Of a stretch of DNA of 4,399 nucleotides, positions 1 to 3,809 are shown one piece after another. The first letter of the stretch is position 1; every line of letters starts with the position of its first letter. Below the pieces are notes generated by a model. The model worked only from the letters and a program-made list of their open reading frames with translations. It ran no database searches and had not been told where the DNA came from. A program made the position numbers and the translations under genes. Where the stretch lies: IMG/VR virus record IMGVR_UViG_3300029253_000170, one strand, 5' to 3'. Source of the stretch: a virus (Duplodnaviria > Heunggongvirae > Uroviricota > Caudoviricetes).

Positions 1-2444
<2,444 letters not shown>

Positions 2445-2466
2445 TCGTCATGCTCCATAAACGACA

Positions 2467-2486
2467 AAACCGCCCGCAGGCGGTTT
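2467..2486 (-). terminator. Perfect 8-bp stem / 4-nt loop hairpin in the I-J intergenic spacer, followed on the minus-strand transcript by a U-rich tract (terminator-like or RNA-stability element)
   Basis: Plus strand aaaccgcc-cgca-ggcggttt: the arms 2467-2474 and 2479-2486 are exact reverse complements. On the minus-strand RNA this reads AAACCGCC-UGCG-GGCGGUUU followed by UGUCGUUUAUGG, i.e. stem-loop plus U-run. It lies 22 nt upstream of the J start codon. I recall the same hairpin at the equivalent lambda position. Function is not established. Confidence 0.35.
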
Positions 2487-2504
2487 CACATAAAACATTT
2501 TGCA

Positions 2505-3176
2505 TCAGCGACCAATCACCACAACCTGACCACCATCCCCTTCGTCTGCCGTGCTGATCTCCTGAGAAACCACCCGCGACCCCACACGCATTTCACCGTA
2601 CAGAACAGGCAGAACATTGCCCTGGGCAACCATGTTATCCAGTGAGGAGAAATAGGTGTTCTGCTTACCGTTATCCGTTGTCTGTGTGCGGGGAGTTCTG
2701 GCTTTAGGTGCCAGCATCTGAGCCACACCGCCGAGCACCATACTGGCACCGAGAGAAAACAGAATGCCGGTCATACCACCGGCCCCAATGGCTGTTCCCC
2801 ATGCTGCAAGGGTGGCTCCGGCGGTAAAGAATGATCCGGCAATGGCGGCTGCCCCCAGGACAATCTGGAATACGCCACCTGACTTGGCCCCGGCGACTCT
2901 GGGAACGATATGAATCACAGCGCCGTCAGGCAGAGCCTCATGTAACTGCGCCGTTAATCCGGACGTGCTGACATCCTGCCCGGCAATACGTACCTGATAC
3001 CAGCCGTCGCTCAGTTTCTGACGAAACGCAGGGAGCTGTGTGGCCAGCGCCCGGATGGCTTCGGCCCCCGTTTTCACACGAAGGTCGATGCGGCGGCCAA
3101 ATCGTTGTAAATCCCCGTAAAGGCAGATGCGTGCCATGCCCGGTGACGCCAGAGGGAGTGTGTGCGTCGCTGCCAT
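2505..3176 (-). CDS. I: Tail tip assembly protein I (gpI-like), 223 aa, complete
   Basis: Track ORF 2505..3176 starts MAATHTLPLASPGMARICLYGDLQRFGRRIDLRVKTGAEAIRALATQLPAFRQ and ends ...EISTADEGDGGQVVVIGR with TGA at 2507-2505. Length and sequence match lambda gpI as I recall it (ubiquitin-like N-terminal half, Gly/Ala-rich hydrophobic C-terminal half). AGAGG-like purine stretch about 11 nt upstream of the ATG. The start lies inside the 3' end of K, as in lambda. Confidence 0.93.
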   Translation of the reverse strand: MAATHTLPLASPGMARICLYGDLQRFGRRIDLRVKTGAEAIRALATQLPAFRQKLSDGWYQVRIAGQDVSTSGLTAQLHEALPDGAVIHIVPRVAGAKSGGVFQIVLGAAAIAGSFFTAGATLAAWGTAIGAGGMTGILFSLGASMVLGGVAQMLAPKARTPRTQTTDNGKQNTYFSSLDNMVAQGNVLPVLYGEMRVGSRVVSQEISTADEGDGGQVVVIGR

Positions 3177-3809
3177 TTGTCGGTATACCTCTCTCGTTTG
3201 CTCAGTTGTTCAGGAATATGGTGCAGCAGCTCGCCGTCACCACAGTAAATGGCGGCATGATTCGGCACAGATGAACCAAAACAGCACAGCAGCACATCGC
3301 CCGGCTGCGCCGCTGACAGCGNNNNNNNNNNNNNNNNNNNNATTATCCAGATAGAGATTCTGACCGTTACGCCACCAGTCATCCTCACGATGAAAATCCG
3401 GCATCTCAATCCCCGCCAGATGGTAAGCATCCCGGAACAGCGTGTAACAGTCCGTCACCCCGTGCTCAAAGAGCCGCCCGGTGAGATGCGGCACACAGCG
3501 GAATTTATGAATCGCCCCCCGGCAGACCAGCCACCACGGCAAATCACTCTGCACCTGCAACCGCCGGTCGGCCTCACTCAGCCAGGGCAGACCACCGGGA
3601 TGGCTGTGCACCAGCGCCACAATCTCACCCTGCATTTCTGCCCGCAGCCAGTCCTCCGGCGACATCCGGAAATACGCCTCCGGCTCACCGGAGATATTTA
3701 CGCAGGGAAGATATCTGTCTCCCTCCGGCGTTCTCACCACAAAGCCGCACGACTCCGCTGGCGCACATCGCCGGGCGTGCGCCAGAATCGCTGATTCTGT
3801 CTCTGTCAT
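3074..3809 (-). CDS. K: Tail tip assembly protein K (gpK-like), MPN/JAB metalloprotease domain plus NlpC/P60 peptidase domain; interrupted by N-run 3322-3341
   Basis: ATG at 3809-3807, 5 nt after the L stop codon. N-terminal 156 codons (track ORF 3237..3809) contain a textbook JAMM motif H68-S-H70-x7-S78-x2-D81 (HSHPGGLPWLSEAD, plus 3567-3608) followed by the start of an NlpC/P60 fold (GVTDCYTLFRDAYH, Cys121 codon 3449-3447). After the N-run the protein continues in another frame (track ORF 3074..3430: LSAAQPGDVLLCCFGSSVPNHAAIYCGDGELLHHIPEQ...) with the His-containing half of the NlpC/P60 fold, ending at TGA 3076-3074. Domain architecture matches what is established for lambda gpK. Confidence 0.88.
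3322..3341. other. Run of 20 N (assembly gap or masked segment) inside K
   Basis: Literal n characters. The last complete K codon before the run ends at 3342 (AAT, Asn156). The downstream frame resumes with a codon straddling 3322-3320, leaving 19 N in between, which is not a multiple of 3. Confidence 1.
3567..3608 (-). other. JAMM/MPN+ metal-binding motif (HxHx7Sx2D) within K
   Basis: Codons for H68-S-H70-PGGLPWL-S78-EA-D81 of K read directly from the sequence; plus 3606-3608 gtg is reverse-complement CAC (His68). Confidence 0.8.

What the first reader, a model, noticed from the sequence alone, without database searches (positions are those of the whole stretch)
2445..2504. Conserved perfect hairpin plus U-tract in the I-J spacer, 22 nt upstream of the J start
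The 60-nt spacer contains an exact 8-bp inverted repeat with a 4-nt loop (plus 2467-2486). On the minus-strand transcript it is followed by a U-rich run, the geometry of an intrinsic terminator or a 3' stabilising stem-loop, yet it sits in the middle of a late operon that must be read through into J. The spacer length and hairpin appear the same as in lambda as I recall it, suggesting selection. Possible roles are partial termination or attenuation setting the I to J expression ratio, an RNase processing or stability element, or modulation of J translation initiation. I do not know of a characterised function; this is inference.
Basis: partly seen in the sequence, partly recalled or inferred. 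Interest (0 to 1): 0.45.

Follow-up and report, generated by a model that had tools for sequence, protein, structure and literature searches.

The report
Terminator-type hairpin before lambda tail gene J
The hairpin is real and under selection, but it is an ordinary predicted Rho-independent terminator sitting inside the late operon just before tail gene J; public records of phages 434, HK97 and mEp234 already annotate it, and its role has never been tested.

Summary
Observation confirmed. The window carries lambda-type tail genes L, K, I and J on the minus strand. The 60-nt I-J spacer holds a perfect 8-bp/4-nt-loop hairpin (+2467-2486), followed on the sense RNA by UGUCGUUUAU, GGAG and the J AUG 22 nt downstream. 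Lambda has the identical hairpin and spacer length.

It is not chance. 22 of 30 distinct J-upstream contexts carry a sense-strand hairpin plus U tract within 100 nt, against 0.015 expected. These include phages whose J is only 30-37% identical and whose stems are unrelated in sequence. Loops vary freely. All six stem transitions give G·U on the sense RNA only.

The element stays attached to J when extra genes (morons such as SodC in Fels-1) are inserted between I and the hairpin. The records of phages 434, HK97 and mEp234 already mark it as a terminator. Intra-late-operon terminators are a recognised class whose role is unknown (PMC8022706).

Best reading: an intrinsic terminator at a module boundary. 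Q-modified polymerase reads through it, and it stops unmodified polymerase. Attenuation that sets the I:J ratio is not supported. No experimental mapping was found. Already known in kind; low interest.

The parts
2505..3176 (-). Gene I (tail tip assembly protein, 223 aa), stop codon TGA at 2505-2507
   Evidence: ORF list. 100% identical to the tail tip assembly protein I of phage PhiR46_1 and 96% DNA identity to lambda across the junction.
2445..2504 (-). I-J intergenic spacer, 60 nt
   Evidence: Same length in lambda. The junction is present in 4279 of 5426 complete E. coli genomes.
2479..2486 (-). 5' arm of the hairpin on the sense RNA (AAACCGCC)
   Evidence: The only stem changes seen in relatives are C-to-U, which keep a U·G pair.
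2475..2478 (-). Tetraloop (UGCG on the sense RNA). It varies freely among relatives: UGCG, UCCG, UCAG, UGCA, UCUG.
2467..2474 (-). 3' arm of the hairpin on the sense RNA (GGCGGUUU)
   Evidence: Invariant in 28 haplotypes.
2457..2466 (-). U-rich tail UGUCGUUUAU. Together with the UUU of the 3' arm it reads UUUUGUCGUUUAU. The first interrupting base is always a purine followed by U.
   Evidence: Columns 39-49 of A4 are nearly invariant, and G43 is G or A only.
2453..2456 (-). Shine-Dalgarno GGAG of J, 8 nt before the AUG
   Evidence: Sequence. Annotated as the ribosome binding site in the phage 434 record.
2442..2444 (-). J start codon (central tail fibre / host specificity protein). The ORF is interrupted further on by masked N runs.
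2437..2505 (-). Possible bridging ORF of 22 codons. Its AUG overlaps the I stop (UGAUG), it reads through the hairpin, and its UAA lies at J nt 6-8. Its status is doubtful.
   Evidence: The ORF is open in 151 copies. One-base-deleted spacers (15 copies) shift to a frame that stops 3 nt before the J AUG. It is absent from Fels-1, Citrobacter and HK97-type spacers.

Best explanation
The element is a Rho-independent (intrinsic) terminator-type stem-loop encoded on the late, sense strand. It sits at the boundary between the tail-tip assembly genes and the J host-range module.

Shown here: it is an RNA-level structure, selected in the sense orientation. It is positionally conserved directly upstream of the J ribosome binding site across lambdoid and related siphophages, although the stem sequence turns over. 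It also marks the downstream edge of a slot where morons insert.

Inferred:
- During lytic growth the Q-loaded polymerase from pR' reads through it. The Q nozzle prevents the hairpin from forming in the RNA exit channel, so J is made normally.
- Polymerase that is not Q-modified is stopped before it enters J. Such polymerase could start at moron promoters, at spurious promoters inside the prophage, or arrive by read-in.
- The element therefore insulates J and the distal genes in a lysogen, and serves as the terminator for any gene inserted in the I-J slot.
- After read-through the hairpin can still fold in the finished mRNA. There it may additionally protect upstream RNA from 3' exonucleases. 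That would be a secondary effect and is not demonstrated.
For: 1. Anatomy. GC-rich 5-bp core extended to 8-11 bp, a tetraloop, then UUUUGUCGUUUAU. My hairpin + U-tract scan, which also picks up hairpins at about 40.6 kb, 38.6 kb and 33.9 kb that I take from memory, not checked against any annotation here, to be tR2, t-oop and tL2, scores it at -12.2 kcal/mol.

2. Independent annotation. OL657226 (phage 434) marks 15466-15485, this very hairpin, as 'terminator'. NC_002167 (HK97) marks a putative terminator at 15107-15129, directly before J. NC_019715 (mEp234) marks a 'rho-independent terminator' in the I-J gap.

3. Conservation of structure rather than sequence.
- 22 of 30 distinct J-upstream contexts have a sense hairpin + U tract within 100 nt. 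Background is 0.015 per 110 nt, and only 5 of 30 have one on the antisense strand.
- Stems differ completely: CCGCC/GGCGG, GCCACC/GGTGGC, GGTCGC/GCGACC, AGCGGC/GCCGCT, AACGGC/GCCGTT, CAGGCACCC/GGGTGCCTG.

4. Strand polarity. All 6 stem transitions seen give G·U on the sense RNA and would give C·A on the antisense RNA. In mEp234 the antisense side has no T tract.

5. The tail is conserved and carries terminator-specific features. HK97-type elements are exactly GC-U7-AU. The lambda type is GC-N6-GU, the same phasing as lambda tR2. This follows the bubble-edge motif of preprint 10.64898/2026.05.29.728758.

6. The hairpin stays with J when morons are inserted upstream of it: SodC in Fels-1, HK97 gp22/gp23, and at least 5 other inserts whose stop codon abuts the hairpin.

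7. In virulent T1-like phages, which I recall have no Q-type antitermination (not tested here), the I-J gap has a strong terminator immediately followed by a TATAAT promoter. So termination there is real enough to need re-initiation.

8. The Q-lambda mechanism (PMC9388147), and the published view that such intra-operon terminators may stop transcription that started without antitermination (PMC8022706).
Against: - There is no experimental 3'-end or termination measurement for this site. None was found in the searchable literature.
- The U tract of the lambda type is interrupted (4 U, then GUCG, then UUU), and the GC/RU dinucleotides are one base out of ideal phase. Efficiency may be modest.
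- The hairpin starts only 18-21 nt after the I stop codon. At that distance a trailing ribosome can partly repress a terminator (PMC4824070).
- What the insulator protects against is unspecified, because the lambda-type spacer has no moron or predicted promoter upstream.
- Some relatives lack the element. I/J overlap in Dhillonvirus, Burkholderiales and Paracoccus prophages. E. albertii-type loci have a reverse moron and no hairpin within 100 nt.
Confidence: 0.55

Rival explanations
1. RNA stability or processing element. After read-through, the stem-loop acts as a barrier to 3'-to-5' exonucleases for the upstream tail mRNA. Alternatively, the U-rich single strand next to it is an RNase E entry site. 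Either way, the I-side and J-side segments would have different half-lives.
For: The hairpin is stable at -13 to -15 kcal/mol. Similar hairpins follow the very highly expressed D and E genes in lambda, a classic position for stabilisers. Selection acts on the sense RNA, and this model accounts for that equally well.
Against: A pure exonuclease barrier needs no U tract. Yet the U tract and the purine-U that ends it are the most conserved part across families. gpI is not an abundant product, so it needs no stabilisation (my knowledge of lambda tail assembly, not tested here). The stem is too short for RNase III.
Confidence: 0.15
2. Partial terminator (attenuator) that lowers J mRNA relative to I during lytic growth.
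For: Terminator geometry. The possibility is raised for intra-operon terminators in general in PMC8022706.
Against: Q-loaded polymerase is termination-deficient by a mechanism that blocks hairpin formation (PMC9388147). The HK97-type counterpart is a near-ideal strong terminator, so it would nearly abolish J rather than tune it. J is required in every tail. From memory, unverified here, Sampson et al. 1988 (PNAS) reported roughly uniform late mRNA levels, with translation initiation setting protein ratios.
Confidence: 0.12
3. Translation element for J. The hairpin plus U-rich tract would work in one of three ways. It could present the J Shine-Dalgarno in an unstructured U-rich context (an S1 or standby platform). 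It could sequester the Shine-Dalgarno through a lower stem. Or it could be traversed by a bridging ORF that couples I translation to J.
For: The U tract abuts the Shine-Dalgarno in both lambda-type and HK97-type elements, with the hairpin ending 4-24 nt before the start. The minimum-free-energy fold pairs AUGUUUUAUG with UAUGGAGCAU, and one pair covaries: UA, UG, CG. An ORF starting at UGAUG spans the spacer and ends beside the J AUG in both the 60-nt and 59-nt versions.
Against: Predicted Shine-Dalgarno accessibility changes inconsistently with the folding window, and with hairpin mutation or deletion. The lower stem has broken pairs in 5-6 of 28 haplotypes and does not exceed the shuffle control, 69/500. 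Neither the lower stem nor the bridging ORF exists in Fels-1, Citrobacter or HK97-type spacers. In Stx-type and T1-type phages the hairpin lies 55-63 nt from the start.
Confidence: 0.1
4. Evolutionary leftover or DNA-level joint. The element would be the terminator of a lost moron, or a conserved linker where homologous recombination swaps the J module and morons. It would have no present function in gene expression.
For: The I-J gap is a moron slot. Nearly the same 20-nt linker, TTTTTTATGGGYGMAATATG, follows hairpins at K-I, I-J and lambda lom-stf junctions in different phages. The exact lambda-type hairpin occurs in about 5 of 120 cases before other genes.
Against: A leftover would decay. 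Instead the stem is 100% paired in 28 haplotypes while the loop and the flanks vary, and every transition is wobble-compatible on one strand only, which indicates selection at RNA level. The hairpin persists across J divergence down to 30-37% identity, with renewed stems.
Confidence: 0.08

Closest known systems
Putative Rho-independent terminators annotated in the I-J gap of phage 434 (OL657226 15466-15485), HK97 (NC_002167 15107-15129) and mEp234 (NC_019715 14409-14430)
   Same: Same position between the gpI and gpJ homologues, same sense orientation, hairpin + U tract directly before the J ribosome binding site. The phage 434 element differs from the window hairpin only in the loop.
   Different: These are predictions in database records, not measured terminators. 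The HK97 and mEp234 stems are unrelated in sequence and have an uninterrupted U6-7 tract.
Moron-flanking terminators of lambdoid phages (Juhala et al. 2000, as summarised in PMC3594210)
   Same: Morons are described as carrying their own promoter and terminator. In HK97, HK022, Fels-1 and many IMG/VR prophages the hairpin before J is the downstream edge of inserted morons.
   Different: The window and lambda have no moron in the gap. There the hairpin stands alone 21 nt after the I stop.
Intra-late-operon terminators of lambdoid and P22-like phages (phage L genome paper, PMC8022706)
   Same: A predicted terminator inside an operon that has a single Q-dependent promoter. The same two candidate roles are discussed there.
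   Different: In phage L the example lies at the end of the procapsid module, not before the tail fibre gene.
Lambda tR2 and tR' with N- or Q-mediated processive antitermination
   Same: Hairpin + U tract read through by a modified polymerase. The GC-N6-RU phasing equals that described for tR2.
   Different: tR2 and tR' are experimentally characterised. They lie near the start of their operons and act as the regulatory switch. The I-J element lies roughly 19 kb into the late transcript, by my reckoning from the lambda map (cohesive ends joined), and no regulatory switch depends on it.
Terminator-promoter boundary in the I-J gap of T1-like Drexlerviridae
   Same: A strong sense-strand terminator between the I and J homologues.
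   Different: It is followed within about 10 nt by a TATAAT-type promoter, so J starts a new transcription unit. No promoter is predicted in the lambda-type spacer.

Membership tests
Intrinsic (Rho-independent) terminator | GC-rich stem of about 5-14 bp with a 3-8 nt loop | tested here: met
   CCGCC/GGCGG core extended by AAA/UUU, tetraloop UGCG, -9.6 to -15.2 kcal/mol.
Intrinsic (Rho-independent) terminator | U-rich tract of 7-9 nt immediately 3' of the stem on the transcribed strand | tested here: inconclusive
   The tract is UUUUGUCGUUUAU: 5 U in the first 8 and 9 U in 13 after the GC core. My scan passes it, and the phage 434 record annotates this hairpin as a terminator. The tool's simple scan misses it. 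The tract is interrupted, unlike the U6-7 of HK97-type elements.
Intrinsic (Rho-independent) terminator | Bubble-edge dinucleotides GC at -11/-10 and RU at -2/-1 (HUB model, preprint 10.64898/2026.05.29.728758) | tested here: inconclusive
   The lambda type has GC, six intervening bases, then GU (or AU in variants). That is one base short of ideal, the same as described for tR2. HK97-type elements match GC-U7-AU exactly.
Intrinsic (Rho-independent) terminator | RNA 3' ends or measured termination at the site | not testable with these tools
   No Term-seq or in vitro data for this site were found. The RIL-seq supplement had no entry under the names I tried.
Intrinsic (Rho-independent) terminator | Orientation-specific selection on the transcribed strand | tested here: met
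   6 of 6 stem transitions are G·U-compatible on the sense RNA only. 22 of 30 contexts score on the sense strand against 5 of 30 on the antisense strand.
Moron (promoter + gene + terminator inserted in a late operon) | An extra gene absent from related phages lies next to the terminator | tested here: not met
   The window spacer is 60 nt with no inserted gene. Relatives do carry morons at this slot.
Curated RNA families (Rfam 15) | Match at or above a family's gathering score | tested here: not met
   The best hits are STnc130 at 19.8 bits against a gathering score of 55, rnk_pseudo at 16.9 and RNAI at 12.3. All have E > 1.
Translational operator or Shine-Dalgarno-sequestering hairpin | A conserved pairing that covers the Shine-Dalgarno or start codon | tested here: inconclusive
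   The lower stem pairs GGAG mostly through G·U. It is 94.6% paired with one covarying pair, does not exceed shuffles (69/500), and is absent in other families.

The most novel reading that the evidence does not exclude
The hairpin is one copy of a portable 'terminator-RBS cassette': a variable GC hairpin, a U tract ending in purine-U, a G-rich Shine-Dalgarno, then the start codon. Lambdoid phages reuse this cassette at K-I, I-J and lom-stf junctions. It would serve both as the recombination joint through which morons and the J host-range module are exchanged, and as a translation-gated terminator. In that model, ribosomes that re-initiate at the UGAUG overlap and read the bridging ORF melt the hairpin. 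Only translated, genuine late transcripts would then pass, even without Q.
Probability: 0.12. Interest if true: 0.5.

Novelty: already known. Interest (0 to 1): 0.2.

Why it matters
On its own this matters little. It is a predicted terminator that annotators have already marked in close and distant relatives, and it belongs to a class that phage genomicists have noted and left unexplained.

Its modest value is as a clean test case for a small open question: why do operons that depend on processive antitermination keep terminators deep inside them?

- The site lies in the best-studied phage.
- It is present in about 80% of complete E. coli genomes.
- It shows clear RNA-level selection.
- Natural variants exist: an empty slot, a moron-filled slot, and a terminator-plus-promoter arrangement.

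A handful of reporter and Term-seq experiments could therefore separate three roles: insulating prophage genes, tuning expression, and stabilising RNA. For engineering lambda-based vectors or host-range swaps at J, it is useful to know that the 60-nt spacer is not inert.

Tried and rejected
- **Rfam** on the spacer and on the Stx-phage insert: nothing near a gathering score.
- **The tool's simple terminator scan** missed the hairpin. I wrote a scan with Vienna energies instead.
- **The search for related loci** with an 8-sequence J alignment failed because no stretch was conserved enough. Narrower alignments worked.
- **RNAalifold** on a MAFFT alignment of cassettes from different families recovered only 3 pairs, because MAFFT did not put unrelated stems in register. 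I therefore did not claim alignment-based covariation across families. I relied on per-sequence hairpin detection against a background rate. Centring sequences on their own hairpins would have been circular.
- **Within-lambda-type covariation** is too weak to prove anything by itself (100% paired upper stem, but only one-sided changes).
- **Shine-Dalgarno accessibility modelling** with wild-type, arm-mutated and hairpin-deleted sequences gave window-dependent, contradictory results.
- **Hfq/sRNA idea.** The lambda RIL-seq paper reports LPR1/PreS, LPR2 and 6S only, none at I-J, and a supplement search found nothing. The EHEC anti-sRNA paper concerns the pR' moron site, not I-J.
- **Literature on experimental mapping.** Searches for Term-seq, long-read or classical mapping of this site returned nothing relevant. 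Juhala et al. 2000 and the Casjens and Hendrix 2015 review are not held.
- **Promoter in the spacer:** none by the consensus scan.
- **REP/BIME or an RNase III site:** considered and dropped from the look of the sequence and the stem length, with no search run against REP/BIME.

Full report
**What is in the window**

The window carries lambda-type tail genes on its minus strand. These are the end of L, then K, then I (3176-2505), and the start of J at 2444. The J reading frame is broken only by masked N runs. The I-J junction region is 96% identical to lambda and 99.5% identical to phage PhiR46_1.

- Between the I stop (2505-2507) and the J start lie 60 nt.
- A single perfect inverted repeat sits there, +2467-2474 and +2479-2486, with four bases between the arms.
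- The late (minus-strand) RNA reads GUGAAACCGCC-UGCG-GGCGGUUU-UGUCGUUUAU-GGAG-CAUGACGA-AUG.
- The stem is worth -13.1 kcal/mol, or -15.2 with G·U extension.
- It is the only perfect inverted repeat of this size in the window. Shuffles predict 0.5 per window but only 0.007 in a 60-nt spacer.
- Lambda has the same spacer length and the identical hairpin, with three substitutions elsewhere in the spacer.

**Close relatives: variation pattern**

I examined 28 spacer haplotypes from about 120 loci.

- The loop is UGCG, UCCG, UCAG or UGCA.
- The upstream part of the spacer and the region between the Shine-Dalgarno and the AUG vary.
- The 16 stem positions are paired in 100% of cells. The U-rich tail is almost invariant. 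Its first interrupting base is always a purine followed by U.
- The only stem substitutions are C-to-U in the 5' arm. These keep a U·G pair on the sense RNA but would give a C·A mismatch on the antisense RNA.
- The HK97-type counterpart behaves the same way: four different transitions, all wobble-compatible on the sense strand, and one singleton transversion that breaks a pair.
- Six of six is a small sample (about 1 in 64 under an even null). It points to selection on the sense transcript, not on the DNA or the opposite strand.

**Distant relatives: structure is kept, sequence is not**

I sampled J homologues down to 30-37% identity.

- In phi80-like mEp213, HK97-like mEp234, HK97 and HK022, the gap before J holds a GC-rich hairpin followed by U6-7 and then the ribosome binding site. 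The same is true in Serratia, Providencia, Phytobacter and Citrobacter prophages. The stem sequences are unrelated to each other.
- Stx2-type phages have a 245-nt gap with a different 9-10 bp hairpin plus U tract about 55 nt before J.
- Over 30 distinct upstream contexts, 22 score as hairpin + U tract on the sense strand within 100 nt of J. Background is 0.015 per 110 nt in the same loci, and only 5 of 30 score on the antisense strand. The contexts are not phylogenetically independent, but the excess is far beyond what relatedness could produce, given that the stems differ.
- The element is absent where I and J overlap or nearly touch: Dhillonvirus WFI, Serratia Opt-148, Moraxella Mcat8, and Burkholderiales and Paracoccus prophages. 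It is also absent from E. albertii-type loci with a reverse-strand insert.

**The gap is a moron slot, and the hairpin belongs to the J side**

- Fels-1 carries a reverse-strand Cu/Zn superoxide dismutase gene between I and the hairpin.
- HK97 and HK022 carry morons gp22 and gp23 there.
- IMG/VR HK97-like prophages show at least five other inserts whose stop codon abuts the hairpin.
- In every case the hairpin, U tract and ribosome binding site remain directly in front of J.
- An exact-pattern scan for the lambda-type hairpin plus tail found it before a J-like start in 115 of 120 viral contigs.
- The junction occurs in 4279 of 5426 complete E. coli genomes.

**It is one of a class**

A scan of the whole lambda genome shows the pattern. 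Every late-operon intergenic gap longer than 40 nt contains a sense-strand hairpin followed by a U tract. These gaps are D-E, E-FI, I-J, J-lom and lom-stf. (The annotated L-K gap is probably coding in the longer K reading frame.)

Virulent T1-like phages also place a strong terminator between I and J, but follow it at once with a TATAAT-type promoter.

**What is already known**

- The phage 434 record annotates this very hairpin as a terminator.
- The HK97 reference record and the mEp234 record annotate putative Rho-independent terminators at the same position.
- Morons are defined as having their own promoter and terminator (PMC3594210).
- A 2021 phage L genome paper states that intra-late-operon terminators are not unique and that their roles are not known. 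It names two possibilities: partial termination, or stopping spurious transcription that began without antitermination (PMC8022706).
- I found no experimental mapping of this site.

**Mechanism**

The best-supported reading is an intrinsic terminator that the Q-loaded late polymerase ignores and that unmodified polymerase obeys.

- Q-lambda forms a nozzle on the RNA exit channel that precludes terminator hairpin formation (PMC9388147).
- The conservation of the U tract, and of the purine-U that ends it, supports termination. A simple exonuclease barrier or protein site would not need these features.
- HK97-type elements match the recently proposed GC-U7-RU bubble-edge motif exactly. The lambda type has GC-N6-GU, the phasing described for lambda tR2.
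- Caveats for the lambda type: the U tract is interrupted, and the hairpin begins only 18-21 nt after the I stop. In that range a trailing ribosome can partly repress termination (PMC4824070).
- The idea that it tunes the I:J ratio during lytic growth is unlikely under Q antitermination. It fits poorly with the strength of the HK97-type element.
- A role in J translation is not supported by folding or by conservation of the lower stem.
- A role as an RNA stabiliser remains possible as a secondary effect.

**Verdict**

It is a known kind of feature, already annotated in relatives, with an untested and probably unremarkable role. The comparative picture assembled here rests on three points: positional conservation with stem turnover, sense-strand wobble polarity, and attachment to J across moron insertions. 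These sharpen the question but do not change the category.

Noticed in passing
L088 (lambda J02459) 6099-6116, 7163-7180, 15464-15481, 18920-18935, 19612-19633: Every late-operon intergenic gap longer than 40 nt (D-E, E-FI, I-J, J-lom, lom-stf) carries a sense-strand hairpin followed by a U tract. Short gaps carry none.
   Followed up: partly
L090 954-988 and 1617-1649; L229 1300-1334 and 2608-2641; L088 19612-19652; L137, L141, L143 and L145 just upstream of J: A nearly constant 20-nt linker, TTTTTTATGGGYGMAATATG (U tract, purine-U, G-rich Shine-Dalgarno, start codon), follows unrelated hairpins. It is seen at K-I and I-J junctions of HK97-like phages, at I-J in Serratia, Providencia and Phytobacter prophages, and at the lambda lom-stf junction. 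This suggests a reusable terminator-RBS joint.
   Followed up: partly
window 2437-2505, minus strand: A 22-codon ORF starts at an AUG overlapping the I stop codon (UGAUG), reads through the hairpin, and stops at J nt 6-8. In spacers with a 1-nt deletion, the shifted frame instead stops 3 nt before the J AUG. The peptide is not conserved between the two frames, and the ORF is absent in other families. It may be chance or a translational coupling device.
   Followed up: partly
L084 1482-1726 and L086 1449-1697 (Stx2-type phages): The I-J gap is about 245 nt. It has a reverse-facing terminator-like hairpin next to I and a forward-facing one about 55 nt before J, that is, convergent hairpins around roughly 150 nt with no annotated gene. 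There is no Rfam match.
   Followed up: partly
L091 1558-1676; L350 1192-1278; L351 1186-1263; L352 1183-1262; L354 1129-1208: In virulent T1-like Drexlerviridae and related Klebsiella phages, the I-J gap holds a strong terminator hairpin with a T6-9 tract. A TATAAT or TAGAAT promoter-like hexamer follows within about 10 nt.
   Followed up: no
L085 1532-2056 (Fels-1), minus strand of the locus: The gene inserted between I and the hairpin, annotated only as 'hypothetical bacteriophage protein', is a Cu/Zn superoxide dismutase: Pfam Sod_Cu, E = 4e-33.
   Followed up: yes
L094-L108, L116, L120, L121, L129-L132, L135: J N-termini 100% identical to lambda turn up on short, low-coverage contigs in assemblies labelled Neobacillus, Kitasatospora, Shewanella, Bradyrhizobium, Pseudomonas and others. 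These are most likely lambda control-DNA contamination of those assemblies.
   Followed up: no
window 869-909, 2258-2271, 3322-3341: Runs of N interrupt J (twice) and K, so the ORF list shows J in pieces with frame changes. This is masking, not biology.
   Followed up: yes
L088 29109-29128, minus strand: Lambda carries a very similar hairpin, AAGCCGCC-UGAU-GGCGGUUU followed by UUUCUUG, on the leftward strand just beyond the xis coding sequence. It is one of a cluster of three leftward terminator-like hairpins at 29.1-29.4 kb.
   Followed up: no
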